Source: an uncultured Actinomycetota bacterium
GTDB taxonomy: Bacteria; Actinomycetota; Acidimicrobiia; Spongiisociales; UBA4744
NCBI GenBank assembly: GCA_963715305.1
Contig: CAVQSB010000019.1
Coordinates: forward strand, 19,072 to 83,071
DNA length: 64,000 nucleotides
Direction of reading: 5' to 3'
The notes under the pieces were generated by a model. It was not told where the DNA came from and ran no database searches. It was given only the letters and a program-made list of their open reading frames with translations. The stretch's first letter is position 1. The number at the start of each line of letters is the position of its first letter. Shown in pieces: positions 2,993-20,445 of this stretch. A program made the position numbers and the translations under genes.

Positions 2993-3040
2993 TTCAGGTG
3001 GAGCACGGAAGCAGCCCCCCGGCCCGTCGCGTACGATCCA

Positions 3041-4303
3041 ATGATGGACACCAGCACCAGTGCCGCAATGCCGGCCGCGCTATGTATTCGTCAAGCCCGT
3101 CTTCGTCAGAGCCAGGGTCTCGTCGACATCGAGATCCTCGACGGTGTGATCAACTCGATCGAACCCACCGGCAGCAGACCCTCGCACGGCCGGCCGCTCG
3201 ATGCCGGGAAGAACCTGGTGACCGAATCGTTCGTGAACCCTCACCTGCATTTAGACAAGGTCTTCACCCTCAGCAGCCTGGGCGACGCCGCCCTGGCCGA
3301 CTATCAGTCGGGAGACATGGGAAACGCCATGAGCGCCATCGAGACCGCTGCCACGGTGAAAGTCGGGCAGGACCGGGACACCATGCTGTTGGCCGGGCGG
3401 CGAGCTCTGGCCATGGCGGCTGCCTACGGCAACACCCACATCCGTGCGCTCGCTGACGTCGACTCGAAGGCCGGCACGCGTGGAGTGGAGGTACTCCTCG
3501 CTCTCAAGGAAGAGTTCGCCGGCGTCGTCGACCTCCAGGTGGTGGCCTTCGCCCAGGACGGCATCATTCGCGAGCCGGGCACGGCCGGCTTGCTGCGACA
3601 ATCCATGGAACTCGGCGCAGACGTTGTGGGCGGGATCCCGTGGATCGAGTTCACCGATGCCGACATGGCTGAGCATGTTCGCATCTGCTTCGACATTGCG
3701 GTCGACTACGACGCAGATGTTTCGATGCTGCTCGACGATGCCGGCGATCCGGGTCTGCGAACGCTGGAGATGATGGCGGTTGAGGCGATTCGCCGCGACT
3801 GGCAAGGGCGGGCACTGGCCCATCACGCCCGGGCAATGCAGCTCTATCCCGACCCGTATTTCGCCAGATTGGTTTCACTGCTGGCGGCTGCGGAGGTGGC
3901 GGTGGTGTCCGACCCGCACACCGGGCCACTGCATGCCCGGGTGAGGGACCTCCTGGAGGCCGGGATCACCGTCAGCCTCGGCCAGGACGACATCTCCGAC
4001 GCTTACTACGCCTTCGGGCGCAACAACATGCTGGAAGTTGCTTTCCTCGGCGCGCATCTCCTGTGGATGATGGCCGGACCGGACCAGGAGGTGCTGTACG
4101 ACTGTGTGACGACGTCGGCGGCTCGCTCGATCGGTTTGACCGATCACCGCCTGGAGGTGGGGGCGCCGGCCAACCTGGTTGTGGTCCGAGGCGAAAAGGT
4201 CACCGAGGCACTCCGGTTTCACGCTGCTCCCCTGGCAGTCGTGAGCCATGGACGGTTGGTCGACCAGGCTGCCATGGCCGAGCTCGCCCAGATATCCATG
4301 TAG
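3041..4303 (+). CDS. Cytosine deaminase-like amidohydrolase (CodA family metal-dependent hydrolase)
   Basis: FVNPHLHLDK metal-binding motif, LQVVAFAQDGI, GADVVGGIPW and SLGQDDISDAYY align with E. coli CodA motifs (FVEPHIHLD, LQIVAFPQEGI, GADVVGAIPH, CFGHDDVFDPWY) from memory. ATG at 3041 (MMDTSTS...) chosen over the longer ORF. Confidence 0.65.
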   Translation: MMDTSTSAAMPAALCIRQARLRQSQGLVDIEILDGVINSIEPTGSRPSHGRPLDAGKNLVTESFVNPHLHLDKVFTLSSLGDAALADYQSGDMGNAMSAIETAATVKVGQDRDTMLLAGRRALAMAAAYGNTHIRALADVDSKAGTRGVEVLLALKEEFAGVVDLQVVAFAQDGIIREPGTAGLLRQSMELGADVVGGIPWIEFTDADMAEHVRICFDIAVDYDADVSMLLDDAGDPGLRTLEMMAVEAIRRDWQGRALAHHARAMQLYPDPYFARLVSLLAAAEVAVVSDPHTGPLHARVRDLLEAGITVSLGQDDISDAYYAFGRNNMLEVAFLGAHLLWMMAGPDQEVLYDCVTTSAARSIGLTDHRLEVGAPANLVVVRGEKVTEALRFHAAPLAVVSHGRLVDQAAMAELAQISM

Positions 4304-6289: not shown

Positions 6290-7580
6290 TTAAGGTTCAG
6301 ACCCGAATCGAAAAGCCAACCGGCGCCTGGACCCTGGCGCCGCTACGGCACCATCCGCACCATGCGCTCCAGCAGGCGATACGCCTGCTCGCCGGTGTGG
6401 CGGTCCTCGGGCTCCAGCAGATTCGACATCACTTTCAGCACCCACTCCATCAAGGGTTTCGATCGCAAGCCCAACGTGGGCCAGGGTCCACATCACTTGG
6501 GGGTAGCCGATGGCCTTCACGAAGATCCGGGCCATGCGGTAGTACAACCCGTAGGTGTCCTCGAGGTCCTGCGGATACCGCTGGAGCAGGCCGAGGTCGT
6601 CGGAAGCCAGTGCCTGATGGACATGGTCGGCAGCCATTCGTCCGGTCTCGTAGGCATAGGCGATACCTTCGCCGTTCCACGGGTTGATCGCTCCGACGGC
6701 ATCGCCAACCAGGACCCAGTTCGACCCTGCATACGGTCCTACCGAGAGCGCCATGGACAGCTTGCCGCCGCGTGGTTTGGACAGAGCTGCTGCCGGAGAC
6801 AGCTCCCAGTAGTCCGGAGCGCTGTCGACATAGGCCGCCATCATGTCGGACGTGTTGATCGACTTCCACTGGCGGAAGGTTGACAGCAACCCCACTCCGA
6901 CATTCACGGTCCCGTCACCGAGGGGAAAGACCCATCCGTAACCCGGCATCGAATCCCCGTTGGCGTCGCGGATGTCCAGTTGGCTTTCCATGTACGAGTC
7001 GTCGGAACGGGGGCTCGAGAAGTAGCCGCGAGCCGCCATCCCCATCGGGTAGTCACGACGCCGATGCGTGCCCATCGCCCTTCCGAAGCGGGTCATGGAT
7101 CCGTCTGCGACGACAACCACCCGGGGATACAGGGTCTCCTGATCGCCGTTCGTCGATAGGTTGACACCCGCCAGGTGCCCGCCTTCGATCAACGGGAGAC
7201 GCTTCGGTGTGCTGACGCAGCAGGGCGCCCTGTTTCTCGGCCAGGGTTGCCACCCGTCCGTCGAGGTCCAGGCGGCGGATGATGCCGCCCCAGTTCGGGT
7301 AGATCGAATGCTGCGGCCAGTCCAGCTCGATCATCAGGTTGTCCCCGGCGTAGGAGCGAAGGCCGGTGATCTTGTGGAACTCGCCGACGTCGAAATCGAA
7401 CCCCATCTCGCTCAGCTGATAGATGGAGCGAGGGCGTCAGCCCGTCACCGCAGGTCTTCTCGCGCGGGAAACTCTTCTTCTCGACGACGGTGACGGAGTG
7501 CCCATACCTGGCCAACCAGTACGCAGCTGCAGAACCGGCCGGACCAGCCCCAACGACAACGACATCAGGCTGAAGAAGAC
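6290..7580 (-). pseudogene. Geranylgeranyl reductase family FAD-dependent oxidoreductase, split over at least 4 frames
   Basis: MSSSA then DVVVVGAGPAGSAAAYWLARYGHSVTVVEKKSFPREKTCGDGLTP (FAD GxGxxG) near 7580-7400. GFDFDVGEFHKITGLRSYAGDNLMIELDWPQ in ORF 7053..7406. The C-terminal part is in ORF 6290..7192. All are homologous to one protein family. Confidence 0.6.
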
Positions 7581-7689
7581 ATGAGTGGGAGGATTAGTGG
7601 GAGTGGGGACATGGGCAGCGATCAGTAGCCACCAGGTAGCGACAGCTACCGGCGGTCAGAAATGCTGAACCTGGAAACCTTGCTCGGCT

Positions 7690-8103
7690 CTACGGAACGA
7701 CCGGGTACCCGTCCTCGTACCAACCCGTGATGCCGGTGGCGACGTTTTCGACCTGGGCGAATCCGAGATCTTCGAACACAGAGAGGGACTGCCCGCTGCG
7801 GTTGCCGCTGTTGCAGTAGACGACGTAGTGCGTGTCCTTGTCCAGCGCATCGAGTTGCTCGCGGAAATCGGCGTCGTAGAAAGTCGATGTTGACGGCTCC
7901 GGCAATCTTCCCGGCGGCGTATTCCTCAGGCGTGCGGATGTCGAGCAGCACAAAATCGGAGTTGTTCGTGTTCTGCTCGATGATGCCTGCCGCGTCGGCC
8001 GGTGAGACGGTCGTGATCTGCTGGTCGACGACGGTGGTCGATGAACAACCGGTCAACCCGGTGAGCACCGCCAGGGAGACGGCCAGGAGACTGGAGATGC
8101 GTT
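7690..8103 (-). pseudogene. Rhodanese-domain lipoprotein (sulfurtransferase-like), frameshift near 7870
   Basis: MKRISSLLAVSLAVLTGLTGCSS lipoprotein start followed by a rhodanese N-part (FVLLDIRTPEEYAAGKIAGAVNIDF) in ORF 7646..8428. Rhodanese active-site part (HYVVYCNSGNRSGQS) in ORF 7690..7953 in another frame. Confidence 0.55.
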
Positions 8104-8224
8104 TCATGGGTTGATCAGTCCTTTCAAGAAGCAGCCGACATGATACCCCCTGGGGTATATACCTTCGTTTTCCAGCCGGATCCTCGTTTTTGGGGTTCCG
8201 GTCGTATCGTATAACGTCCCTCTT

Positions 8225-8862
8225 GTGAAATTGACGCGTATCCCCCGAGCCACCGTTAACCGGCTCCCGCTCTATCTCCGGGCGCTCGACATCATCCCCG
8301 ATGAGCAAATCACCGTCTCGTCGAAAGAACTGGCCGAGCTGATCAAGGAGAACTCCGCCAAAGTTCGCAAGGACCTTTCCTTTCTGGGCACGTACGGTGT
8401 GCGCGGGGTTGGCTACAACGTCGAGCAACTCCGTTTCCAGATCCGCCGCGAACTCGGGTTGACGAGAATCTGGCCCGTGATCATCGTCGGAGCAGGCAAC
8501 CTCGGATCGGCGCTCGCCAAGTACGGAGGTTTCGACGACGAGCGGCTTTGAGATCGTCGGTATCTACGACAATGACCCCGAACTCATCGGCACTACCGTC
8601 GGCGATCTCACGGTCGGCCCTATGGAGGCAATCCAGCACGACGCCAAGCGAATTGCACGTCGAGATCGGAATCATCGCGACCCCGGTGCCGGCCGCCCAG
8701 CACGTCGCCGAACAACTTGCCGCGGCAGGGTTCAAATCGATCCTGAATTTCGCTCCGATGGTGCTGAGGGTGTCCCCGGAAGTCGAGATTCGCCGTGTCG
8801 ATCTATCGACCGAACTCCAGATCCTCGGGTACTACGTTCAACGAGCCCTCGCCGAGGCCTAA
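8225..8862 (+). pseudogene. rex: Redox-sensing transcriptional repressor Rex, two frame changes (about 8545 and 8660)
   Basis: N-terminal winged-helix IPRATVNRLPLYLRAL and Rossmann IIVGAGNLGSALAKYGGF in frame 1. FEIVGIYDNDPELIGTTVGDL in a second frame. The C-terminal EIGIIATPVPAAQHVAEQLAAAGFKSILNFAP...YYVQR is in ORF 8548..8862. Confidence 0.6.
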
Positions 8863-8867
8863 ACCTT

Positions 8868-9217
8868 CTCGCGCTCCTGCTCTTCCTCGAAACGGCTGAG
8901 GGCCGTGAGAAACATCGCGAACAGGATCAGCGACGCCAGCATGAACGTCAGCGGGATGATGCGAATCTCGAAGGCGTTGAGACCTTCGAAATCAGCCGGG
9001 CGGGGCCGCGCGGGGCATAGAGGACGAAGAGCAGACTGTTGATCGAGGTCCAGCCGAAGGTGGCGGCCCCGGTCAGCAGAAAGGCAAGTTTCTTGCCGAG
9101 GTTGGTCCAGTTCAACAGATAGACCGACCCGAAGAACACGACGATGGAAGCCAGCGTCAACAGGATCCCGGTCACCGCCAGGTTGGCCGAAAGAATCTCC
9201 CTGAACAGTTCCCGCAT
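8868..9217 (-). CDS. Small polytopic membrane protein (possibly cytochrome oxidase subunit IV/CtaF-like), one frame change near 9005
   Basis: ORF 8948..9217 gives two TM helices. An alternative frame continues ADFEGLNAFEIRIIPLTFMLASLILFAMFLTALSRFEEEQEREKV-stop. The function is a guess from size, topology and position next to the cytochrome genes. Confidence 0.3.
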
Positions 9218-9218
9218 A

Positions 9219-10665
9219 TCAGTCCCCCGTCAGCGTGTCGCCGCGCAGATACTGCACGATCAGTTCCAGGTCATCCAGCGACAGGACCGGCCCGAAGGCA
9301 GGCATGCGTCCTGACCCGACCCCGTTGACCCCGTACGGGACTCCGTTCTCGGAGCCTTTGGTGAGGAACGTGACCATGTCGGCAGGGTTGAGGAATTGCA
9401 CGTTGGGCCGCCCGTCCCACAGAGCAGGTCCGAGGGCTCCCGAGCCGACCGGTTGGGTCAAGGCAACACCGGCCGAATAACCGGCCGTGTGGCACCGGGC
9501 ACAGTAACCGTTGAAGAGGCCGACGGCCCGGGAAGCCCGTTCCGTGTCACCGCCGAAGGTGGCGTCTGCCACGGCCGGGATGTCAATCTCCCACTTTCTG
9601 GTCCTGCTGTGCCTGCTCGAGGAAATCCAGTCCACCGACCGCCTGGGTGAGGAGCTTCTCCTGGTTGTCGGTGGTGACCTGCAGCTTGGTGGCAGCCGAC
9701 TCGAGCGCTGTGACTGCCGTTCTGGCCAGCTCGAGATCATCCTCCCCCGGCGTCGATTGCGGGTTTTCGGCATCGAGCGTGACCGCCAGGGCCGGATTGC
9801 CGAGCACGGTCCCGGCTTCGGCGAGAATCGACTGTCAGCTCCTGTTCGACCCGATCCGGAAGGCCGTCGCCGTCGACGTCGATGCCGTCGCCGGCTGCAT
9901 CCAGGGCATCCGCGGCGCGCCCGGCCAGCGCCTTGGCCGTTCCCACCTGGGACGGCGCCGCCTCGATCGAGGCGACGAGAGCGGTTTGTCTGGCAATGTC
10001 AGTCTTCCAGGAGGGTGTCGGCCGTATCCAACCGGGATAACGCTTCGTTGACCTTCCCCTCGATCTCCAGGAGCGCTTCGTCTTGGGGGATCATGAATTC
10101 CTCGGACTGCAGGTACTCCATCAACTCTTCGATCTGCTGGTCGTTCAGGGGACCACCGCCGTCGAGACCCCAGGCGGGCATCGGCGAATTGGCCCGGCCG
10201 TACACCAGCCAGAACTTGACCTCTTCCGGCGTGTACCGATAGAAGACTGAATTGATGTCCGGAGCCGACCAGGCAACGCTGATACCGCTCCGCTTCTCAA
10301 CGTAGGCAGCAACCCCTCCGCCACCGTCGACACCGTGGCAGGTGCCGCACAGGAATTCCTCGAACAGGTGGGCGCCCCGTTCCAGCGCAACCGCGTCGAA
10401 CTCTTCGACGAACCCCTCCTGGCGGCTCTGCTCACTCACGAAGTAGATGGGCAGCGAGAGCGCCAGGATCCCGGAGAGCACGACGGCGGAAGCCAGCGTC
10501 TTGTCCAGCCGTTTCGACTCGAGCCGGTCGTCGGTTATCCCGGGAGCGAGATTGGGGGCTATCTCTTCTCGGCCGCGGCCTCGCAGGCTGTTGGTACACC
10601 AGAAAGGCCAGCCAGGCGATGGCAGCCAGCGCGGCGACCGTGATGACAATGGTGCTGCTGTCCAC
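9219..10665 (-). pseudogene. Diheme cytochrome c (QcrC-like) with long linker; N-terminal TM plus heme 1 (CGTCHG), linker with several frame changes, heme 2 (CARCHTAGY)
   Basis: CxxCH motifs in ORF 9999..10682 and ORF 9219..9773. The intervening 9580..9999 region is only readable by switching among three overlapping minus-strand ORFs. The N-terminal TM (MDSSTIVITVAALAAIAWLAFLVYQ) is in ORF 10432..10665. Confidence 0.5.
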
Positions 10666-11566
10666 CTATCCCCCGATCGCAACGCAGGAAGGACCCTGCG
10701 GATAGGGAACGGTCTTGACCGAAGCGCGAGCCGGTCTGGATCACGGCGCCGGTGTCGATGATGAGGTGCCCATCCTCGGTGACTTCGATGACGAACCGAT
10801 CGAGGTTGCGGGGGGCCGGGCCACCTTCGTACTCACCGACGAAGTTGTATTTGGAACCATGGCAAGGACATTCAAAACCTTGTGAGGTCGCACACCAGGG
10901 CACCCGGCAGCCCAGGTGCACGCATTTCTGCCATAAGGCCGTGAGCCCTCCGGCGACAACACTCTTTCCTTCGAATTGAACTCCTGCAGCCTCATCGAAG
11001 GGCATGACGTAGGCGCGCGCATCGGGGATGAAGAGGGGCTGCACCGAACCATCCGGCAGGAAGACCTGGGCGCGCACGTCCTCGACCAACCCGGCGTCGA
11101 TCTTGCCGCCAAACCCTCCCGACAGCTTGGGCCAGAAGAAGGCAAGCATCGACAACCCCATCAAGCCCAGATAGCCGCCGAAGGTCGTGAGCAGCGCCCG
11201 GTTGAAGAACTGCCGGCGCGTGACGCCGGCTTCCTCGGGCGAAACCTCGACAACCCGTTGGACCTCGGCGACCGCCACGGCGGCCGATGCGGCGGCTGCA
11301 GCGGCGGGAGCCTCGACAGGTTCTCCAGGCCCTTCGTCGATTTCGTCAAGGCCTTCTTCAACCGGCTGCGGTTCGACCACCGGCGCCGGAGTTATGACCG
11401 GAGCCGACTTCTCCGAGACATCGGCGGCCCGGGTTTCCCTGGAGAGAGCCGACCGCCAGTCCGTTTCTTTCTCCCCGCCGCGCCGGTAGGCGATGGCGAA
11501 CGCCGCCAAGGCCGCCAGAAGGCACACCGCACCAATCGACACAATGAGGATCTGCTGTGTGCTCAT
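10559..11566 (-). CDS. Rieske [2Fe-2S] iron-sulfur subunit of a quinol:cytochrome c reductase (QcrA/PetC-like)
   Basis: Box I CVHLGCRV and box II CPCHGSKY, with an N-terminal TM (MSTQQILIVSIGAVCLLAALAAFAIAY). The C-terminal boundary is uncertain because the ORF runs on without a stop into the qcrC-like start. Confidence 0.7.
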   Translation of the reverse strand: MSTQQILIVSIGAVCLLAALAAFAIAYRRGGEKETDWRSALSRETRAADVSEKSAPVITPAPVVEPQPVEEGLDEIDEGPGEPVEAPAAAAAASAAVAVAEVQRVVEVSPEEAGVTRRQFFNRALLTTFGGYLGLMGLSMLAFFWPKLSGGFGGKIDAGLVEDVRAQVFLPDGSVQPLFIPDARAYVMPFDEAAGVQFEGKSVVAGGLTALWQKCVHLGCRVPWCATSQGFECPCHGSKYNFVGEYEGGPAPRNLDRFVIEVTEDGHLIIDTGAVIQTGSRFGQDRSLSAGSFLRCDRGIGGQQHHCHHGRRAGCHRLAGLSGVPTACEAAAEKR

Positions 11567-12050
11567 TCGAAGGAAATCCAGTCTTTGAGATCGTCGAACC
11601 AAATGCCGTCCGACCATGGATAGCTGAAGTTGAAGCCCGGGCCCCGGAACAGAACCCCGATGATCGTCAGGGTTGCGGAGGCAACCAGGAAGAAGGTGAA
11701 GAACGCAATGGCGAACTTGCGGTCGGACGGTTTCGTTGACGGGTTGCGGTCTACATACGGAACTGCCATCAAGCCGATCAAACCGACCACGGTCGGAACC
11801 AGGACTCCCCCGACCTGTGGATCGAAGTAGGACAGGAGTTCCTGCAAACCAAGGAAATACCAGGGTGCCTTGGACGGGTTGGGAGTCAGGTTGAAGTTGG
11901 CGAGGTCCAGAAGGGGAGCTTGCAGGATGACGCTGAGCACGACCAGCAGTGCAGTCACGGCCAGCAAAGCAACGAATTCGATCAGGAGCAGGTGCGGCCA
12001 GACGCTCACCTTGTCGGTCGGTTCGGCTTTCACCTGTTGAATCGACTTGG
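11563..12050 (-). CDS. Cytochrome b subunit IV-like (C-terminal half of cytochrome b, PetD-like) membrane domain
   Basis: PNPSKAPWYFLGLQELL, the characteristic PEWY-type motif of cyt b C-terminal domain/subunit IV, plus 3 TM helices. Upstream it is joined in-frame (after frame corrections) to the Ala/Pro linker and motif repeats at 12047..12861. Confidence 0.6.
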
Positions 12051-12861
12051 CGCGAACCACCGTTAAGAGCCGCTGCGGGCGAACCCCTTCGGGGGTTCCG
12101 GCCGGTGGAACGACCGGCGGAGCGGTGATGGTCGTGGTGCGGCCCCCCGGAGCCTCTGAAGCAGGTTCGGCAGCTGACGCAGCCGCCGCCGCCGGCGCAA
12201 CCACCGCAGCGGCTCGCGACCGCCGCGCAGGCTGCGGAGCCGCCGGAGCAGGCTCAACAACCGCGGGAGCGGGCGCTTCCGCGGCCGGTTCCGAAACCGG
12301 AGGACTCGGCGTCCCCCGGTCATCTCCGCCAGGATGTCCTCAACCGGACGACCGGTCGCCTTGGCCTTCGCCTCCGCCGAACGGCGCAACAACGCCTCAG
12401 GAATCTTCGACGCAGCCGCAGCCGCCGCCGGCGCAACCACCGCAGCAGGCTCAACAACCACCGGAGCAGGCTCAACCGCCATCCAGCGAGCACCGGTTCC
12501 GAAACCGGAGACTCGGCGTCCCCGGTCATCTCCGCCAGGATGTCCTCAACCGGACGACCGGTCGCCTTGGCCTTCGCCTCCGCCGAACGGCGCAACAACG
12601 CCTCAGGAATCTTCGACGCAGCCGCCGCCGCCGCCGGCGCAACCACCGCAGCAGGCTCAACAACCGCCGGGGCGGGCTTCGACAACCGACAAGCGCGGGT
12701 TGTTCGACATCGGCCGCTGGTTCGGCGGGTGCCTGCTGAGGCGCAGCAGCCATCTTTCCCAGCGCGTTCTCGCGAGCTGCGGCCTCCCGAGCCTGAAGAT
12801 CTTCGGGAATCGTCGTGCCGGGCGTGTCGGCGCTCACACCGCCGGAGACTTCCTCAATCAA
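12047..12861 (-). repeat. Coding tandem repeats: a copy ending near 12290 and two near-identical 206-bp copies at 12291..12496 and 12497..12700, each encoding AAVVAPAAAAAASKIPEALLRRSAEAKAKATGRPVEDILAEMTG, preceded by a divergent copy (TTIPEDLQAREAAARENALGKM); the frame is broken between copies
   Basis: ORFs 12334.. and 12540.. (plus strand) start with 42 identical residues, so the period is 206 nt. Minus-strand ORFs 12063..12482 and 12320..12685 both contain the identical peptide. Copy A reads cgtcccccggtc and copy B reads cgtccccggtc, a homopolymer-length difference. Confidence 0.65.
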
Positions 12862-12989
12862 CGCGGACGGGCTTCGGCCCCTTCGGGGGCCAGGCCCATG
12901 TCTGCCAGGACCTGCTCGAGTGGCACGCCAAGGGCCTTGGCACGCGCTTCGGCGGACCTCCGGAGAAGATGCTCTGGGATTTCGGGCAT
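12858..12989 (-). CDS. Mini-ORF (43 aa) made of one copy of the recurring module: MPEIPEHLLRRSAEARAKALGVPLEQVLADMGLAPEGAEARPR
   Basis: ATG at 12989 is preceded by AAGGAG 7 nt upstream and sits 11 nt after the cytochrome b6 stop. The ORF is below the 60-aa track threshold and was found by manual translation. Confidence 0.4.
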   Translation of the reverse strand: MPEIPEHLLRRSAEARAKALGVPLEQVLADMGLAPEGAEARPR

Positions 12990-12999
12990 GTGGTTCTCC

Positions 13000-13773
13000 T
13001 TAGAGGGGTCCCGAGATCCCGCCGTCTTTGCGTACCCGCCAGAAGTGAACGGCCATGAAGATCACGATGATGAACGGGAGGAAGAGAACATGCAGCACGT
13101 AGAAACGGAGCAGGGTGCTGCCGGTGACTTCGACGCCTCCGAGGAGGCCGAACTTGACCTGCTCACCGAAGACCGGCACGAACCCGGCCATGTTGCTGCC
13201 CACGGTCACCGCCCACAACGCCAACTGGTCCCACGGCAACAGGTAACCGGTGAAGGACAAGAGGAGGGTCAAGAACAGCAGGACCACCCCGACAACCCAG
13301 TTGAACTCACGGGGCGGTTTGTAGGCGCCGTGATAGAACACGCGCGACATGTGGAGGAACACGGTGAGCACCATGAGGTGAGCACCCCAGCGGTGCATGT
13401 TCCTGACCAGCGACCCGAAAGCGACACTCGTCGAAAGGGCCTCGATGTCGGCATAGGCGGCCGGGACCGTTGGCCGGTAGTAGAACATCAAGAAGATGCC
13501 GGTGATCGTGAGCAAGATGAAGAGGAAGAAGCTCAGGCCACCCAGACACAGGGTGTAGGAAAGCCGCACGCCGTGGCGCTTCACCTTCACCGGGTGCAGG
13601 TGATAGAGCACGTTGTTCATGATCACGTACGAGCGGTTGCGGGGGCTGTCGGTGTAGCCCTTCTTGAACGGTGACCCGGGCCGGAAGATGCTCTCCCAGG
13701 CCTGGCTGGCGCGAACCCGTTCTCCGACCTCGCCAACCCTTTCCTTGAGGCTCGTCTTGTCTCCGTTTGCCAA
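13000..13773 (-). CDS. Cytochrome b6-like (N-terminal four-helix heme-binding half of cytochrome b)
   Basis: 257 aa with 4 TM helices. His pairs are in the typical b6 positions ([38 protein letters not shown]; [22 protein letters not shown]). Split b6/subunit-IV organisation. Confidence 0.75.
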
Positions 13774-13788
13774 CGTGTTTCCCTTCCC

Positions 13789-14242
13789 TTACCAGCGCAC
13801 GCCGTACGCGTACCCGTTCTTGAAATCTCGTTGCCCGGTGTCGACGGCCCAGGGCGCTTCGGACAAACCTGCCTCGATGGCCTCGTCGGCAACCGAACCG
13901 GCGAACTTGCCGAGGGTGATCACCCCGGTCGGGCACCGGTCGATGCACAGCTGGCACCGGGTGCACTCTGACTCAGTCCACAACGAAGAAGCCGGGGGCT
14001 TCCTGGTCATCAGCCGGATTGGCGACACCGTGGGCCTCGGCGATGGCCGAGGTCGAGAGGTAGTGGATGCACTTCCAGGGGCAGATGTCGACGCAACCTT
14101 CACAGAGGATGCACTCGGACTGATCGATGTGCAGAAACTGCTTCGGTCGAAGGCCCTGCTGCACGTATTCGGTTTCCACCAGAGCCAGTTGATAGTCGTC
14201 GCGGAACGGTGGGGTCTCGAACCAGACGTCGGTGCGGGCCAT
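13789..14242 (-). pseudogene. 2x[4Fe-4S] ferredoxin-type protein, frameshift near 13975
   Basis: CILCEGCVDICPWKC in ORF 13973..14242 and CTRCQLCIDRCPTG in the 13789..14676 frame. Together they form a classical dicluster ferredoxin. ATG at 14242 abuts the stop of the upstream membrane protein. Confidence 0.5.
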
Positions 14243-14243
14243 C

Positions 14244-14870
14244 TCAGTCGCCCTTCACGAGCGGCCGGCCGTACACAGACTGCTTCTCTTCTGCGGCCGC
14301 AGAAGATGTGGCTTTGCCCCAATCCTGAAGCTTGTAGGCGAAGACGATCGCCGCTCCGAGCATCACCAGGTTGTAGGTGCCTGAGACTGCGTCTTTGATG
14401 ACGGAGTAGCTGATGTCTACCTGATTGCCGAGGACCAACCAGGGGGGGATGGTGAACAGAATCCGTTGTGACGTGAACTCGAGTGGACCCTGGGTCAGGT
14501 TGAGCCACTCGGAAGGCACGACCCCGAATATGAGAACCAGTTCGATCCAGGCGATGAAAGAGCCAAAGGTGGCACGGGCCCAGGTGAGCTTGCGACCCAT
14601 GAACCACAAGAACAAGGAACCGACGATCATCAGTTGGGAACCGCCGAATCCGATGAGCTGGCCGAGCGTGACCCATTGCCAGCCGCGGGGAATCCAGCCC
14701 AGGTAGTCGACCTGGACAGGCACCACGACACCGTCGATGATCTCGGTCTCCGGGAAGAGGGCGTAGTGGGCGATGATCACACCAACTGCCAGTGCCAGGG
14801 TCCCGAGGAGCAGGGCGACGGCACCCAGCCGCGTCCTTTGTTTCTCTGTCAGCTCGGCCAACCGGTTCAT
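14244..14870 (-). CDS. Hypothetical 4-TM membrane protein at the head of the b6 cluster
   Basis: 208-aa intact ORF with TM helices at LGAVALLLGTLALAVGVIIAHY, LMIVGSLFLWFMG, FIAWIELVLIFGVV and LVMLGAAIVFAY. No recognised family. Confidence 0.4.
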   Translation of the reverse strand: MNRLAELTEKQRTRLGAVALLLGTLALAVGVIIAHYALFPETEIIDGVVVPVQVDYLGWIPRGWQWVTLGQLIGFGGSQLMIVGSLFLWFMGRKLTWARATFGSFIAWIELVLIFGVVPSEWLNLTQGPLEFTSQRILFTIPPWLVLGNQVDISYSVIKDAVSGTYNLVMLGAAIVFAYKLQDWGKATSSAAAEEKQSVYGRPLVKGD

Positions 14871-14977
14871 TGGTTAGGTCTCATCTCCATCGCCACCAAG
14901 GACGGCGTACTCTACCGCGCAGATACGGATGAGCAACGGTCAACGGGTCATTGGCAGTTGCGCAGCGACCGGTTCGC

Positions 14978-15700
14978 CTATTCGACCATTCTCCGCCGAA
15001 ACAGGAGCAGGGCCAGGGCGACGGTCACCACGGTGTAGGCGAGCACCCAGGAGAAATCGGATGCGATGGCCCCGAAACCCGCACCGTCCAGCATGACATC
15101 ACGGGTTGCGTCGAGAGCGTGCGCGAATGGAAGGGCGTTTCCGACGCTTTGGAAGACACCTCCGATAGCGTCCAGATCCATCCAGGCCCCTCCGAAGATC
15201 GTCAGGAGGAGGATGACGGCGTACGCGCCTGACAACGGCGTCAGCGGCAGGACCGATCCGAGGATCATTCCCGTGCCCACGTAGAAGATCGCAGTGACCA
15301 ACAAGACAAGGACGACTAGGCCGACGCTTCCGGCCACCTCCAACCCGAGGAGCGCTCCGATGCCGTAGAGCAAGAGCGCCTGGATGATGGCGACCGGCAG
15401 ATACGGCAACGAGTAGGCGGCAACGAGGTCTCTCGCCCGAACCGGCGCGGTGAGCAATCGGGCGAAGAGGGCGGTTTCGCGGTCACGGGAGAGCGTCATG
15501 GCCGCACTGAACATCAGCATGACGAACCCGAAGAGCACAATTCCCGGCGCTAACACCGTCGGCGAGAAAAACGCATCGACACTGCCAAAGGCCTGGAGCA
15601 CGAGCAAGAGCAGCACGGGCAGCCCGATGGTGATTCCCAGCGAGAGAGGATCTCGCCAGACTTCTTTGAAGTTCCGCTTGGCCAACTCGAGGGATCTCAT
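14978..15700 (-). CDS. ABC-2 family transporter permease
   Basis: 240 aa, 6 TM, ABC-2-type pattern. Its start overlaps the upstream ATPase stop in an ATGA arrangement. Confidence 0.6.
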   Translation of the reverse strand: MRSLELAKRNFKEVWRDPLSLGITIGLPVLLLLVLQAFGSVDAFFSPTVLAPGIVLFGFVMLMFSAAMTLSRDRETALFARLLTAPVRARDLVAAYSLPYLPVAIIQALLLYGIGALLGLEVAGSVGLVVLVLLVTAIFYVGTGMILGSVLPLTPLSGAYAVILLLTIFGGAWMDLDAIGGVFQSVGNALPFAHALDATRDVMLDGAGFGAIASDFSWVLAYTVVTVALALLLFRRRMVE

Positions 15701-16642
15701 TCTCGCAACTGCTTTCCCGTGAGACGCAGGAACACGTCATCCAGGGTGACCTGCTTCCTGTACGTGGACTGGATCGTCACCCCCAGGGGTCGCAGAATGT
15801 CCTGGATGTTGTAGACGCTTGCCTGTTCGCCCTCGATCTCAACCCTTCCGTTGACGGCCCGAACCGTCGGGTAGACCTGCCGGAGGGCGTCGAAGGCAGC
15901 CTCCGAGAGGTTCTCTCGCCTCAACGACCATCACCGACGTGTCGGCGATGCCGTCTTTCAGCTGAGCGGGAGGGCCAAGCGAGACGACCTTTCCTTCGTC
16001 GATGATGGCGACCCGGTCGGCCAGCGCATCTGCCTCTTCGAGGTAGTGGGTGGTGAGCAGAATCGTCTTCTCGCCCTTGAGGCCTTCAATGTGCTCCCAG
16101 ATGGCCCTTCTCGACTGGGGATCCAGGCCGAGGGTGGGTTCGTCGAGGAACAGCACCTGGGGATCCGAGACGAGCGCCATGGCGATGCTGAGTCTGCGTT
16201 TCATGCCCCCGGAATACTTCTTGACCCGCTCCTTGGCCCGGCTCATCAGACCCATCATCTCGAGGAGATCGCCGGATCGCTTCCTTGCCTCTTGCTTGTC
16301 GAGTCCGTGCAACCCCGCCATGAGGCTCAAGTTCTCCCAGGCATTGAGACGATCGGCAATCGCCGACTCCTGTGGCGAGACGTCAATGACCGCCTTCACG
16401 GCCAGAGGATCCTTCCGGACGTCGTGACCCATGACGATGGCGGTGCCTCCGGTCGGTCTCAGCAAACAACACAGCATCTTGATGGTGGTGGTTTTGCCTG
16501 CCCCGTTGGGTCCCAGCAGCGAAAAGAGCTCGCCGCGCTCGACGTTCAGATCGATACCGTCAACGGCGACGAACTTGCCGAATGTCCTGGAGAGACTCGA
16601 TGTCTGGATGGCACATGCAATGCTTTCAGCAGGTCGGCTCAA
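15697..16642 (-). pseudogene. ABC transporter ATP-binding protein, frameshift near 15920
   Basis: Walker A LLGPNGAGKTTTIKML, signature YSGGMKRRLSIAMAL and Walker B LFLDEPTLGLD in ORF 15839..16642. The C-terminal domain is in ORF 15697..15924 in another frame. Confidence 0.65.
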
Positions 16643-16703
16643 GAACGCTCCCGGACGTCGTACATCCTTCCTAAGGGCTCAGCCCAGGGTCAGATAGAGG
16701 ACG

Positions 16704-17105
16704 TTGGTCCCTTCGACTCTGAAATTGGACCCCGAATCCCCTTGGGGTCACTGCCGCCGGGTACCTTCCGCGTTTCCCGGCCGGCGGAGTTTCTGTCATC
16801 TGGTTTCTCTTGGGTCCGGTACCGACCTCGACAACCTCATCACGTTATGTGGATATCATCACCGACTCTTCCACGAGCACGGCTGGACCGTCACCGGCCA
16901 CCCGGACCGTCACATCACCTGGCACCGCCCCGACGGCTATCCCTTCCGAGCCCGACCGCCCGCCCGACCACTCCACCAATGGAAACACACGCTCGACCTC
17001 ATGCTCCCGATCCAACCACCCGACCGGGTCGCGCCACCCCCTACCCGCTTCTACATTGACGGGCCCGCGTTCGACGGCGAGAATTGCCGCCGTTCGACGG
17101 CATGA
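16704..17105 (+). mobile_element. Remnant of an HNH endonuclease gene of the actinobacterial 13E12/DUF222-HNH type (C-terminal HNH part only)
   Basis: DLDNLITLCGYHHRLFHEHGWTVTGHPDRHITWHRPDGY matches the HNH C-terminus of REP13E12-family proteins (from memory). There is no upstream DUF222 part, so the gene is truncated. Confidence 0.45.
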
Positions 17106-17144
17106 ACCCCGGGTCCTTTCGGAAGTCGCTGCGACTCGTCGGGT

Positions 17145-18650
17145 ATGCTCGTGCGCCGGGCACGAAAGATTCGATTCGAGGAGGGTGAGGGGTTGGCAAC
17201 CGCCACGACCGCAGCACGGTCATCACTCGTCGATTTTCTCGCGCCCCGGGATACGGATTCGGCAGCCCGAAGGCACCTGATCGCCGCCGTCATCTTTCTG
17301 CTGGTGGCCGGCTTCTTCACCATGCTGCTCTTCGTCAAGCTTGCCTACCCCAACTTCCTGGGCGGGCAGGCCTTCACCACGTACGGCCGTCTCCGCCCGA
17401 TTGCGATCTCCGCAACGGTGCTCGGGTTCGTGACTTTGATGCACATGGCCGCCATTTACTACCTCGTACCCAGACTGACCGGGGCTCGGCTCTGGAATGA
17501 ACGGCTCGCCAACCTCGGGCTCTGGCTGGCGGTCGGCGTGAACGTGGCCGCCATCGTGGCACTGGCGGCCGGGTATTCGGATGGCCGGGAGTGGCTCGAG
17601 ATCCCCTGGTGGCTCGACATCGCGGTCGTGTGTCATGCTGCTGGTGCCGGGTGCCGTTGTGGCTCGCACCATGAAGGACCGCACCGAAGAAGGACTGTTC
17701 GTATCGCTGTGGTACTTCCTGGCCGGCCTCTTCTGGGTGGTCGGGCTCTATGTGGTCGGCAACATCCCGAATCTGTACGGAGCGGCCTCACAGATCCAGT
17801 CGTCGTTCTTCGTGTCCGGGAGTGACCGAGTTGTGGCTGATCGGCATCGGTGTCGGCACCGCCTACTACCTGGTCCCCAAGATCACGGATAGCCCGCTCT
17901 TCAATCGCCAGCTGGCGCTCATCGGATTCTGGTCGCTCGCCTTTGCCGGAGCCTGGCTTGGGCAAAGCCGGTTCATCTACGGTCCCGGCCCGGAATGGCT
18001 GGAAACGACCGCCTCTGCCTTCGCTCTAGCACTGGTGGTTGCCGCCATGGCGGTGGTCACCAACCTGGTCGGAACGATGAGCGGGAAGTGGTCGATGCTG
18101 CGGGAATCGGCTGCCCTTCGATTCACGATGGTCGGTGCCGCCCTGTACCTGATCGTGGCCCTGCTTCGTTTCCTACCCGGGCTTCGTTCGGTTGCGGTCT
18201 TCACCGGCCTGACGAGTTTCGGGGACGGCACGATGGCACTGGTGCTGTTCGGCCTGGCCGGCCTGTGGGCGGCCGCCTTCGTCTATCACGCACTCCCCCG
18301 ACTCATCGGACGCGAGATCTACTCGGAACGGCTCACCAGGGTGCACCTGCGCGGCCACCCTGATCGGAGCAGGTTCGCTGGCACTGTTGCTGTGGATGGC
18401 CGGTCTCGTCTCCGGATACTCGTGGGCGGCCGGGGCGTTGACCGGCGCCTATGTCTCCGCAGGCGAAGGCTTCGCCAACACGGTCGATCAAGTCCGCCTC
18501 GCCTACAGCCTCACGGCCCTGGCAGCACTCGTGCTCTTCGGCGGTCAGGTCGTTTTCGCCTACAACACCTATCGCACCTTCACCTCCGGCACGCCGACAG
18601 TTCATGAAGCGCTGGTAGCCGGCAAGCCCGTCGAGGTGGCCGATGAGTAA
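17145..18650 (+). pseudogene. Heme-copper oxidase subunit I homolog of the cbb3 CcoN type, with 3 frame changes (about 17625, 17820, 18360) and, as read, no canonical histidine ligands
   Basis: CcoN-like motifs recalled from memory: YGRLRPIAISATV (vs fGRLRPLHTNAV), AAIYYLVPR, EWLEIPWWLDI (vs EWPIDI), GVGTAYYLVPK (vs WGHNAVGF..MYYFVPK) and AAFVYHALPRLIGREIYS (vs ALYHLYPRLFG). Followed by ccoO with an 8-nt overlap. Confidence 0.5.
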
Positions 18651-19430
18651 CGAGACATTGGCTGCAGCTGCAGAGATCATGGGTGTACCCGAACCGCTGG
18701 TGCAACGATCCGCCCAGGCTCGCGCCCAGGTCGGTGGAATCGGTGTCGACGAAATCCTGGGGGCGTGGAGCGGCGGTGCCGCCGTCACTCCTTCGGCCGC
18801 CCCTCCCCCGGCTGCCCCACCCCCCGAGCCGGAGCCAGTTCCGAAGTCAGCCCCGGCCGCCCAAGCTGTCGAACCCGTGCCCGCCCCCACCCCACCGGCC
18901 GAGGCGGCAACGGCGGTAGCCGTCCTCGGAAACACCCATCCAGGAAGGCTCACCGGTATTGACCGGGCGCCGGGAAAGCCCTGGCTTCCCTCCTGGCCGG
19001 AGTGGTCGGCCTGTTCCTGGTCGCCGTGCTCTTTGCGCTGGTCCTGCCGGCTCTTCGACGGAATACCGCAAACACCCCCGCCGAGCGGTTTGAGTGAGCT
19101 CGGGTTGCAGGGACGAGATGTCTACGTGACCGAAGGTTGCTGGTACTGCCATACCCAACAGGTGCGGCCGATCGTGACCGATGCCAAGCTCGGACCGGTA
19201 ACCCGGGCGGACCTGCTGGCATCCTTCGCTCCCGACACGCTGGGCATCCAGCGGATCGGACCGGACCTGGCCCATGCCGGGAGCCGGGAGCCGACCAACG
19301 ATCCGGCGTGGCTGACCAAATTCCTCACCAACCCGCGTCGGTGAACCAGGACAGCCTCCAACCCGGGTACGGCCATCTGTCGGACGCCGACCTGGCGGCG
19401 CTGGTCCAGTACCTTGTGGAGTCCCGATGA
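18643..19430 (+). CDS. CcoO-like monoheme cytochrome c subunit with an extra N-terminal cytoplasmic module and Pro/Ala linker; one frame change near 19340
   Basis: GCWYCHTQQVRP...GIQRIGPDLAHAG...FLTNPR is a CcoO/NorC signature. The N-terminus (MSNETLAAAAEIMGVPEPLVQRSAQARAQVGGIGVDEILGAWSGGAA) is absent from canonical CcoO. The C-terminus continues in ORF 19137..19430 (LSDADLAALVQYLVESR) and ends in an ATGA overlap with the next gene. Confidence 0.6.
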
Positions 19431-20445
19431 GTGAGCATCTGTCCGCTGCCGCCGAATCCATGGGAGTCCCCGAATCGCTCGTGCAACGCTCCGCCCAGGC
19501 GCGCGCTGCGGCCGGCTCCATCTCCGCTGAGGACGTGCTCGCCGCCTGGGCAGGTGGAGCAGCCGCTCCTCGTAGCTCCGCCCGCTCCTGTTCCCGAACC
19601 TCCCGCCGCCGAAACTTCCGAACAACCGGCAAAGCCGGAGCCGGAGGCCGCCCCGCCGCCCCCCACCCCCAGCGCGGCACCGGTATCCGCCCCACCCGGA
19701 GAACCCCGGGCTATCCCGGCCCGACCGGTACCCGAATCCGTCGGCATGGCAGGGGCGAATGAATGGGAGTCGGTCATCACCGTCCCAACCGCCGGGCTTC
19801 GGGAGCGAACCATGACCCGGGTGCCGTCCTGGTTGACGGTCCGTCTTCGTGATCCTTCCTCTCGTCGGACTGCTCTACCTCGTGCAGTTCTCAGGAGGGC
19901 CCGACTGCGGGAACAGCGGTCTGCTGGCCGTCGATCGTGTCTCCGGGGAGGTCGTGAACTGTGACGGATCGCCGTTCGAGGGTCGGGGCGCACCCGGCGG
20001 AGGAACCACGAACTTCCTGGCCCTCGGCCAGACTCTGTATGCAGACGCCCAGGTGGCCTGCATCGGCTGCCACGGCGCCGGCGGCGAAGGTGGCGTCGGC
20101 CCGGCCTTTGCCGGAGGAGCGGTTCTCGTCACCTTCCCGACGTGCGCCGATCATGTGCAATGGGTTCAGCTGGGATCCAGCGGTTGGCAAGCCCAGGTGG
20201 GCACCGAGTACGGAGCACAAGGGACGCTCTCCAAGGGCGGCATGCCCGGCTTCGTCGACTCGCTCAGCGACGAGGAGCTTCGGTCGGTCGTCGCCTTCGA
20301 ACGGGTGAGGTTTGGTGGGGCCAACCTCGACGAAACCCTGGTTGACTGCGGCCTGGTGATCCCGGAACTACCGGTAGACGTGACGGAGGCTCCGGCCGGC
20401 GAAGGCGGGGACGCAACCACCACCACGACCGAAGCCACCGGCTAG
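19427..20445 (+). pseudogene. CcoP-like membrane-anchored cytochrome c with the same N-terminal module; 2 frame changes (about 19570, 19850)
   Basis: N-terminal MSEHLSAAAESMGVPESLVQRSAQARAAAGSISAEDVLAAWAGGAA, then a Pro/Ala/Glu linker, a TM (ILPLVGLLYLVQF) and a heme domain CIGCHGAGGEGGVGP in ORF 19849..20445. Confidence 0.5.

What the first reader, a model, noticed from the sequence alone, without database searches (positions are those of the whole stretch)
12047..12989. Recurring ~35-aa module forms a stand-alone mini-ORF after cytochrome b6 and a tandem array fused upstream of cytochrome b subunit IV
The peptide (S/M)-(K/P)-(I/E)-I-P-E-x-L-L-R-R-S-A-E-A-(K/R)-A-K-A-x-G-x-P-(V/L)-E-(D/Q)-(I/V)-L-A-(E/D)-M-(T/G)-G occurs five times here. 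One copy is the 43-aa mini-ORF with a perfect AAGGAG ribosome-binding site, 11 nt after the b6 stop. One divergent copy and three (two near-identical 206-nt plus an earlier one) follow. They are followed by an Ala/Pro linker that, after frame correction, reads into the subunit IV (PEWY-motif) membrane domain. Canonical split cytochrome b complexes have no such soluble repeat domain, and I do not recognise the module as a named domain. Its position predicts a cytoplasmic N-terminal extension of subunit IV.
Basis: seen in the sequence. Interest (0 to 1): 0.7.

Follow-up and report, generated by a model that had tools for sequence, protein, structure and literature searches.

The report
Repeated helical module on respiratory subunits
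A small, unnamed three-helix protein module is repeated in the cytoplasmic N-terminal tail of a cytochrome b6-type complex subunit and also heads two oxidase subunits in Acidimicrobiia; the "separate mini-gene" is only the real start of that subunit's gene, cut off by a frame error in a poor assembly.

Summary
The module is real, but the gene structure was misread. On the minus strand, 12989..11566 is one gene for cytochrome b subunit IV. It has a roughly 300-residue N-terminal extension with three full copies and one degenerate copy of a ~33-45 aa module, not five.

In the window this gene is broken by four frame changes. The 43-aa "mini-ORF" is its true start (RBS and ATG) followed by the first break. 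Of 76 related Acidimicrobiia loci, 74 read from the same start motif straight into subunit IV. Intact genes of the closest relative meet at least 16 frame breaks across about 12 kb of the window, so the assembly, not the biology, explains the split.

The module has no Pfam, NCBIfam, PDB-sequence or literature match. AlphaFold2 folds it confidently (pLDDT 86) as a three-helix mini-domain, and the copies sit between disordered, acidic Ala/Pro/Glu linkers. It always lies on the cytoplasmic side, before the first membrane helix of subunit IV, CcoO-like and CcoP-like cytochromes and a few other membrane proteins. It occurs in 420 protein clusters, with up to seven copies per protein.

My best guess, which is inferred and not shown, is a flexibly tethered, multivalent docking module. 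I rate it a new variant of a known complex, of moderate interest.

The parts
13000..13773 (-). Cytochrome b6-type gene (257 aa), immediately upstream. Context only. It carries the CLGG cysteine typical of haem ci-binding b6.
   Evidence: PF00033, 164.7 bits. 95% identical to L001 with no frame break.
12996..13001 (-). Ribosome-binding site AAGGAG, overlapping the b6 stop codon, 6 nt before the ATG at 12989. It is the RBS of the subunit IV gene.
   Evidence: Read from the sequence. The same arrangement is present in L001.
12891..12989 (-). Module copy 1 (MPEIPEHLLRRSAEARAKALGVPLEQVLADMGL). This is the true N-terminus of subunit IV, a two-helix version without the leading helix. The 'mini-ORF' 12989..12858 is this copy plus an out-of-frame tail.
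   Evidence: Profile hit E 4e-17. M1, P5 and R11 are invariant in 72 aligned subunit IV proteins.
12860..12875 (-). Frame break 1 (frame 0 to 2; about one base missing). It creates the TGA that ends the mini-ORF.
   Evidence: Relatives read GL..EG..P...IEEV.. straight through this point.
12751..12813 (-). Degenerate module copy (TIPEDLQAREAAARENALGKM), which keeps a single helix.
   Evidence: E 7.8 on its own. It is positionally conserved in L001, P0011 and L083. The equivalent stretch in P0011 is predicted as a helix with pLDDT about 91.
12682..12691 (-). Frame break 2 (frame 2 to 1).
12518..12616 (-). Module copy 2 (SKIPEALLRRSAEAKAKATGRPVEDILAEMTGD), first unit of the 206-nt tandem repeat.
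   Evidence: E 1.9e-17. Tandem repeat and direct repeat reports.
12479..12482 (-). Frame break 3 (frame 1 to 0). It lies inside the inter-module linker and explains why the repeat period (206) is not a multiple of three.
12312..12410 (-). Module copy 3, second unit of the tandem repeat. It is 98% identical in DNA to copy 2.
   Evidence: E 1.8e-17. Identity matrix.
12300..12325 (-). Frame break 4 (frame 0 to 2). Copy 3 differs from copy 2 here only by one extra G in a G-run and one extra C.
12082..12312 (-). Ala/Pro/Glu-rich linker, predicted disordered, joining the modules to the membrane domain.
   Evidence: Translation. The equivalent stretch of P0011 has pLDDT below 50 and net charge -7.
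11566..12081 (-). Conserved juxtamembrane helix (RPQRLLTVVRAKSIQQVK) and the three-helix membrane core of subunit IV, with APWY at 11868-11857.
   Evidence: PF00032. 91% identical to L001. Collinear with P0011.
18679..18777 (+). Module copy at the N-terminus of the CcoO-like (FixO) subunit. This is the oxidase-type variant, with a leading helix and W in helix 3.
   Evidence: E 1e-18. FixO, 53 bits.
19460..19558 (+). Module copy at the N-terminus of the CcoP-like membrane-anchored cytochrome c.
   Evidence: E 4e-18. In relatives the order is module, one membrane helix, then CxxCH.

Best explanation
What it is (well supported). Positions 12989..11566 on the minus strand are one gene, not a mini-ORF plus an array plus subunit IV. 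It encodes subunit IV of a split cytochrome b6-type quinol:cytochrome c reductase. The frame-corrected protein is about 472 aa. Its N-terminal ~300 residues read: module 1, degenerate module, module 2, module 3, then a linker. The module is an uncharacterised, Acidimicrobiia-centred mini-domain. Its internal and oxidase-type copies have three helices. The first copy of subunit IV has two helices, and more distant Acidimicrobiia keep only one helix, 'IPEHLLKRS..A..KA'. The copies are separated by disordered, acidic Ala/Pro/Glu linkers, like beads on a string. The four frame changes in the window are most likely sequence or assembly indels.

Where it sits (inferred from topology). The module is always N-terminal to the first membrane helix. 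In the CcoO-like and CcoP-like proteins one helix separates it from a haem c (CxxCH) domain, which must be periplasmic. In subunit IV the Qo-loop motif follows the first helix. The modules therefore face the cytoplasm.

How it works (inference only; my probability about 0.35). The modules are flexibly tethered, multivalent docking units. The conserved face of the central helix (P12, L15, R18, S19, A20, A22, R/K23, A24) would bind a common partner. That partner could be a cytoplasmic surface of the partner respiratory complex, which would hold the bc-type and cbb3-type complexes together, or it could be a shared soluble factor.

The confidence value of 0.7 refers to the identity and location statements taken together; the docking mechanism alone stands at about 0.35.
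For: One gene:
- 74 of 76 related loci have the start motif and subunit IV in one ORF.
- The closest relative, L001, has a 460-codon ORF with the same order of parts.
- L083 and P0011 are intact 408-aa proteins.
- The frame-corrected window protein is collinear with P0011.

Frame errors:
- Intact L001 ORFs meet at least 16 frame breaks in window 7.0-19.3 kb. CcoN has 3, the dihaem cytochrome c 3, Rex 2 and the ferredoxin 1. Amino-acid identity stays at 60-95% and there are no in-frame stops.

Fold:
- AlphaFold2 gives pLDDT 86 with helices at 2-10, 14-28 and 32-39.
- In full-length P0011 the modules score pLDDT 89-97, the linkers score below 50, and pTM is 0.22.

Spread and context:
- The profile finds 420 clusters at E<=1e-3, with up to 7 copies per protein.
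- Partner domains are PF00032, FixO and cytochrome c.
- The module always precedes the membrane helices.
- 30 of 39 oxidase-side ORFs read module, one membrane helix, then CxxCH.

Link to the oxidase:
- 29 of 32 loci with a full module on subunit IV have the divergent cbb3-type cluster next door, and 24 of these carry modules on it. Only 1 of 48 loci without a full module has that cluster nearby.

Conserved surface.
Against: - No partner has been identified and no multimer prediction was possible, so the docking mechanism rests on architecture and analogy.
- The co-occurrence with the cbb3 cluster follows phylogeny: the loci with full modules are also the window's closest relatives. It is not a set of independent events.
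- The module also heads a 7-helix membrane protein in a neighbourhood that is not obviously respiratory (L082). This argues against a strictly bc-cbb3 role.
- Most frame-break sites are not at homopolymer runs. The error type is therefore unclear, and real mutations cannot be excluded without reads.
- The two 206-nt units are 96-98% identical, so the copy number in this genome (2 or 3 full modules) is unverified.
Confidence: 0.7

Rival explanations
1. The 43-aa module is a genuine stand-alone small protein translated from its own RBS, and a separate tandem array is fused to subunit IV.
For: The ORF 12989..12858 exists with a strong RBS. The same 43-aa product is on public record (P0001).
Against: The stop is not conserved. 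74 of 76 related loci, L083 and P0011 read through at this point. The downstream array has no start or RBS of its own in the correct frame, and it needs three further frame changes. The window is full of frame breaks in other genes too.
Confidence: 0.04
2. The frame changes are real. The bc and cbb3 operons of this organism are decaying pseudogenes, or the gene is expressed through repeated ribosomal frameshifting.
For: Most break sites are not at homopolymers. All four breaks in this gene shift in the same direction.
Against: There is about one break per 0.75 kb across many essential genes, yet protein identity is high and the recovered frames contain no nonsense codons. That is the signature of indel error, not decay. 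The four junctions share no slippery motif. Other genes shift in the opposite direction.
Confidence: 0.1
3. The second 206-nt unit is an assembly expansion. The real gene has two full modules, as in P0011 and L083.
For: The units are 96-98% identical. Two close relatives have only one internal copy. The assembly is of low quality.
Against: The closest relative, L001, independently has two internal copies (92% identical to each other), and other lineages have 3-7 copies. The two window units differ by substitutions and by linker sequence.
Confidence: 0.15
4. The module is a topogenic or biogenesis element. A fast-folding, locally basic N-terminal domain would keep the N-terminus in the cytoplasm, or would be recognised by an insertion or assembly factor for membrane proteins whose N-terminus stays inside.
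For: The module is always N-terminal to the first membrane helix, and it occurs on unrelated membrane proteins. The central helix is basic, at +1.6.
Against: Arrays of 3-7 copies on linkers 30-60 residues long are unnecessary for topology. The whole extension is acidic.
Confidence: 0.15
5. The module is a helix-turn-helix-like domain that binds nucleic acid or anionic lipid, tethering respiratory complexes to the nucleoid or the membrane surface.
Against: The mean net charge of the module is -0.8 and the linkers are strongly acidic. The window copies match no HTH or ANTAR profile. The best structural matches are generic designed helical repeats.
Confidence: 0.05

Closest known systems
Subunit IV (PetD) of cytochrome b6f, and the subunit IV part of split cytochrome b in Firmicutes-type bc complexes
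   Same: It is encoded directly after a b6-type cytochrome b. It matches PF00032, has three membrane helices, carries a W-Y Qo-loop motif after the first helix, and has its N-terminus on the cytoplasmic (n) side.
   Different: It carries a 100-300-residue N-terminal extension with 1-3 or more helical modules on disordered linkers, which canonical PetD lacks. The motif is APWY, not PEWY. It falls far below the PetD equivalog cut-off (TIGR01156: 19 bits against 127).
Peripheral subunit-binding domain (PSBD) of 2-oxo-acid dehydrogenase E2 chains. This is an analogy recalled from knowledge, not homology.
   Same: It is a helical mini-domain of about 35-45 aa with conserved Arg residues, flanked by long flexible Ala/Pro-rich linkers. 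That architecture lets a tethered module dock partners.
   Different: There is no sequence match to E3_binding at E<=10. Here the module is repeated, sits on membrane proteins, and has no known partner.
CcoO (FixO) and CcoP (FixP) subunits of cbb3-type oxidases
   Same: The window proteins at 18643 and 19427 have the membrane anchor plus haem c domain. The protein at 18643 reaches the FixO threshold.
   Different: Canonical CcoO and CcoP start at or near the membrane helix. Here 1-5 modules precede it.
ANTAR and helix-turn-helix three-helix domains
   Different: There is no profile match, no net positive charge, and the similarity is no better than to designed helical repeats.

Membership tests
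Cytochrome b C-terminal / subunit IV (Pfam PF00032) | Profile match above the gathering score | tested here: met
   36.2 bits against a cut-off of 20.7 for window 11563-12204. P0011 scores 31.7 bits.
Cytochrome b C-terminal / subunit IV (Pfam PF00032) | Encoded immediately downstream of a split b6-type cytochrome b | tested here: met
   The b6 gene is at 13773..13000 and the start of the subunit IV gene is at 12989. The same order holds in all 76 loci that contain both genes.
Cytochrome b C-terminal / subunit IV (Pfam PF00032) | P-E-W-Y Qo-site motif after the first membrane helix | tested here: inconclusive
   The motif reads A-P-W-Y (11868-11857). W and Y are invariant in 72 relatives, but the Glu is absent.
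Cyanobacterial/plastid PetD equivalog (TIGR01156) | Score above the equivalog cut-off | tested here: not met
   P0011 scores 19.4 bits against a cut-off of 127. ExtQ (NF040970) scores 47.5 bits against 150.
Stand-alone small protein (mini-ORF) | Its own stop codon conserved in related genomes | tested here: not met
   74 of 76 loci, L083 and P0011 read through into subunit IV.
cbb3 oxidase subunit II (FixO, PF02433) | Profile match above the gathering score for the protein at 18643 | tested here: met
   53 bits against a cut-off of 29.6. The NCBIfam ccoO equivalog is not reached (45.6 bits against 200).
Peripheral subunit-binding domain (E3_binding, PF02817) | Sequence profile match | tested here: not met
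   No hit at E<=10 for the window modules and none at E<=1 for multi-copy homologues.
Peripheral subunit-binding domain (E3_binding, PF02817) | Small helical domain between flexible Ala/Pro-rich linkers | tested here: met
   Modules score pLDDT 86-97, linkers score below 50, and linkers are 76-88% Ala/Pro/Glu/Val. This is a resemblance in how it may work, not membership.
Helix-turn-helix DNA-binding domains / ANTAR | Profile match, or a specific structural match together with a basic surface | tested here: not met
Programmed ribosomal frameshift site | A shared slippery motif at the frame junctions, specific to this gene | tested here: not met
   The four junctions share no common motif, and at least 12 further breaks occur in neighbouring genes, some in the other direction.

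The most novel reading that the evidence does not exclude
The module is a previously undescribed cytoplasmic docking domain. It works by multivalent binding, with 1-7 copies per subunit on several subunits of two dimeric complexes. Through this it would either organise the b6-type reductase and the cbb3-type oxidase of Acidimicrobiia into a supercomplex or membrane patch from the cytoplasmic side, or recruit a still unknown soluble partner to both complexes.
Probability: 0.3. Interest if true: 0.7.

Novelty: new variant of a known kind. Interest (0 to 1): 0.5.

Why it matters
Respiratory supercomplexes described so far are held together mainly by contacts within the membrane or on the periplasmic side (my own knowledge, not tested here). 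Here a conserved, repeated cytoplasmic module is shared by subunits of both a quinol:cytochrome c reductase and a cbb3-type oxidase. That would point to a different way of coupling or regulating the two complexes, in a widespread but poorly studied class of Actinomycetota. It also defines a domain family that is currently annotated only as 'hypothetical protein'.

The case also has a practical lesson. The most eye-catching feature, a mini-ORF with a perfect RBS, is an artefact of a frame-broken assembly.

Tried and rejected
Searches that found nothing for the module:
- Pfam and NCBIfam scans of the modules and of multi-copy homologues gave no family.
- A few Pfam HTH, Xre or YceG hits appear among the 150 representatives. 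They involve 1-3 members each. I could not trace them to the module and did not pursue them.
- A PDB sequence profile search gave only chance matches at E>=1.
- Word-indexed protein searches returned only short fragments named 'hypothetical protein'. A first attempt failed because the query was under 40 aa.
- Literature searches for the motif strings found 0 papers, and searches on Acidimicrobiia respiratory complexes found nothing relevant.

Look-ups and jobs that failed:
- An exact look-up of the mini-ORF's contig found nothing on record.
It was rerun with a shallow 15-sequence alignment, so the membrane part of that model is only moderate in quality.

Tests with weak or negative results:
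- I looked for homopolymer runs at the frame-break sites to pin the breaks on long-read error. Most sites have none.
- I looked at the neighbourhood of a module-bearing 7-helix membrane protein for a respiratory link. None was evident.

Explanations rejected: a stand-alone small protein, programmed frameshifting, a DNA- or lipid-binding domain, and a third internal module copy.

Full report
**Anatomy of the region.**
All genes here lie on the minus strand. Their order is:
- a 208-aa membrane protein;
- a 2x[4Fe-4S] ferredoxin;
- cytochrome b6 (13773..13000; PF00033);
- the region in question;
- subunit IV (PF00032; 12204..11563);
- a Rieske protein;
- c-type cytochromes.

Three-frame translation of 13010..11560 shows the following:
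- The 43-aa ORF (12989..12858) is in frame 0.
- A degenerate copy (TIPEDLQAREAAARENALGKM, 12813-12751) is in frame 2.
- A full copy (12616-12518) is in frame 1.
- A second full copy (12410-12312) is in frame 0.
- The Ala/Pro linker and the subunit IV core are in frame 2.

Four frame changes, all in the same direction, are therefore needed to read from the ATG at 12989 to the stop at 11563.

Tandem Repeats Finder confirms a 206-nt period (1.9 copies, 96% matches) at 12285-12678. Because 206 is 3x69-1, the odd period is itself one of the frame breaks. The RBS AAGGAG (13001-12996) overlaps the b6 stop codon and lies 6 nt before the ATG.

**Is the repeat more than chance?**
A profile built from the copies, searched against the six-frame translation of all 64 kb, finds exactly five significant sites (E 1e-18 to 4e-17). 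Three are here. One is at 18679-18777, the N-terminus of a FixO/CcoO-like protein. One is at 19460-19558, the N-terminus of a CcoP-like cytochrome c. The degenerate copy scores only E 7.8. There are three full copies and one degenerate copy.

**What relatives show.**
The b6 protein retrieved 80 loci, nearly all labelled Acidimicrobiia or Actinomycetota.
- In 47 loci the full module lies directly after b6.
- Wherever subunit IV is present in the locus, the module is the N-terminus of one continuous ORF that ends as subunit IV.
- In the remaining loci the same ORF begins with a shorter, helix-only form (MTEIPEHLLKRA..A..KA), usually followed by a second one (SKIPAHLLERSK..). This includes the isolate genome Aquihabitans sp. 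G128.
- In total, 74 of 76 loci have start motif and subunit IV in one ORF. The two exceptions are visibly frame-shifted.
- In an alignment of 72 such proteins, M1, P5 and R11 are invariant.

The closest relative, L001 (b6 95% identical), has a 460-codon ORF with the same order as the window: module, degenerate module, two internal modules, linker, membrane core. The JGI contig L083 and protein P0011 are intact 408-aa versions with one internal module. The frame-corrected window protein (472 aa) is collinear with P0011 over its whole length. The mini-ORF is therefore the genuine start of the subunit IV gene, cut short by a frame break.

**Why the window is broken.**
I translated intact ORFs of L001 and compared them with the window. 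They align in consecutive pieces that jump between frames:
- CcoN, three jumps;
- the dihaem cytochrome c, three jumps (one 479-aa ORF in L001);
- Rex, two jumps;
- a neighbouring gene, two jumps;
- the ferredoxin, one jump;
- the small membrane protein, one jump;
- subunit IV, four jumps.

That makes at least 16 breaks in about 12 kb. Identity stays at 60-95% and the recovered frames contain no stop codons. This pattern fits indel errors in the deposited sequence far better than gene decay or programmed frameshifting. However, most break sites are not at homopolymer runs, so only the reads can settle the matter. Several public protein predictions from other assemblies show the same out-of-frame Arg-rich tails. 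These GC-rich, repetitive linkers seem prone to such errors.

**The module as a family.**
A profile search of 1.84 billion representative proteins found 420 clusters at E<=1e-3 and 135 at E<=1e-10, with up to seven copies in one protein.
- Among the best 150, the accompanying domains are cytochrome c/CcoP-like (18), FixO (8) and PF00032 (8). Most of the rest are short fragments.
- Some lineages put arrays on a protein related to the small membrane protein at the end of the bc operon (P0002, P0006).
- Others put a module on further membrane proteins, such as a 7-helix protein in a neighbourhood that is not obviously respiratory.
- The module always precedes the first membrane helix.
- On the oxidase side, 30 of 39 ORFs read module, one membrane helix, then CxxCH.

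A haem c domain is periplasmic, so the modules must be cytoplasmic. The same follows for subunit IV, because the Qo-loop motif comes after its first helix. This step rests on established knowledge of b6f and bc topology.

No Pfam, NCBIfam, PDB-sequence or literature match exists for the module. Public names are 'hypothetical protein'.

**Structure.**

In full-length P0011 the modules are confident (pLDDT 89-97), the linkers are disordered (below 50), and pTM is 0.22. This means independent beads on a string.

The most conserved positions are P12, L15, R18, S19, A20, A22, R/K23, A24, G28, L35, W/M38 and G40. The central helix is basic (+1.6) and the last helix is acidic (-2.3). The module is about neutral overall (-0.8) and the linkers are strongly acidic. 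This argues against binding of DNA or anionic lipid.

**Mechanism.**
Shown so far:
- one gene;
- cytoplasmic location;
- folded modules on flexible linkers;
- the same module on subunits of two respiratory complexes whose operons are adjacent and divergent.

Inferred: the modules are tethered, multivalent docking units. One supporting observation is co-occurrence. Of 32 loci with full modules on subunit IV, 29 have the cbb3-type cluster next door, and 24 of those have modules on it. Only 1 of 48 loci without full modules has that cluster nearby. This correlation follows phylogeny and is weak evidence. The module's presence on other membrane proteins suggests a shared partner or a general role rather than a strictly bc-cbb3 glue. 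I put the docking model at about 0.35, a biogenesis or topology role at about 0.15, and DNA or lipid binding at about 0.05.

**Repeat copy number.**
Copies 2 and 3 are 98% identical in the window and 92% identical in L001, but only 84-87% identical between the two genomes. This indicates either independent duplication or concerted evolution. Arrays are real in general. Whether this genome has two or three full copies cannot be decided without spanning reads.

**Verdict.**
- the cytoplasmic N-terminal extension holds;
- the unnamed domain holds;
- the stand-alone mini-ORF does not hold.

This is a new variant of a known complex, carrying an undescribed accessory domain family. Interest is moderate.

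Noticed in passing
window 7000-19350 (for example 17145-18650 CcoN; 9222-10604 cytochrome c; 8183-8856 Rex; 13792-14254 ferredoxin): There are at least 16 frame breaks relative to intact ORFs of the closest relative. Substitutions look normal and the recovered frames contain no stops. Any ORF-based reading of this window is unreliable.
   Followed up: partly
window 13792-14254 (-) and 14244-14870 (-); L001 5524-5982 and 4731-5531; L083 11384-11836: A 150-aa 2x[4Fe-4S] ferredoxin (Fer4, E 3e-12) and a roughly 210-270-aa membrane protein with no Pfam match sit directly upstream of b6 in the same orientation. The arrangement is conserved in relatives. They could be extra subunits of this bc-type complex.
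   Followed up: partly
window 13000-13773 (-): The b6 protein contains YTLCLGG, the cysteine context that binds haem ci in b6f and Firmicutes-type complexes. I recognise this from knowledge and did not test it.
   Followed up: no
window 11857-11868 (-): The Qo-site motif is APWY rather than PEWY. In the 72 aligned Acidimicrobiia subunit IV proteins, P, W and Y are invariant and the motif's Glu is absent.
   Followed up: partly
window 8183-8856 (+); L001 10789-11484 (-): A Rex-type redox-sensing repressor (Put_DNA-bind_N plus CoA_binding) lies just beyond the end of the bc operon. It has two frame breaks in the window.
   Followed up: partly
window 9222-10604 (-); L001 8962-10398: The two c-type cytochrome ORFs of the window are a single 479-aa ORF in L001. 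This suggests one fused dihaem cytochrome c, as in actinobacterial QcrC-like proteins.
   Followed up: partly
80 related loci: Full three-helix modules on subunit IV co-occur with an adjacent, divergently oriented cbb3-type oxidase cluster (29 of 32 loci). Lineages with only the helix-only motif almost never have that cluster nearby (1 of 48 loci).
   Followed up: partly
L082 3825-4994 (P0189) and neighbouring genes at 1680-3813: The oxidase-type module also heads a 7-helix membrane protein that some sources call an 'MFS permease'. It lies next to a lipoprotein, a 450-aa membrane protein and a 57-aa protein. Neither the lipoprotein nor the 450-aa protein has a Pfam match; the 57-aa protein was not scanned, and the precomputed record lists no Pfam hit for any of the three.
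   Followed up: partly
window 16704-17105 (+): This ORF contains the stretch LCGYHHRLFHEHGW, which looks like a fragment of an HNH endonuclease of the actinobacterial 13E12-repeat type. It gives no Pfam hit at E<=1e-3.
   Followed up: partly
window 14978-16642 (-): An ABC transporter pair (ATPase and permease) lies between the bc operon and the cbb3-type operon.
   Followed up: no
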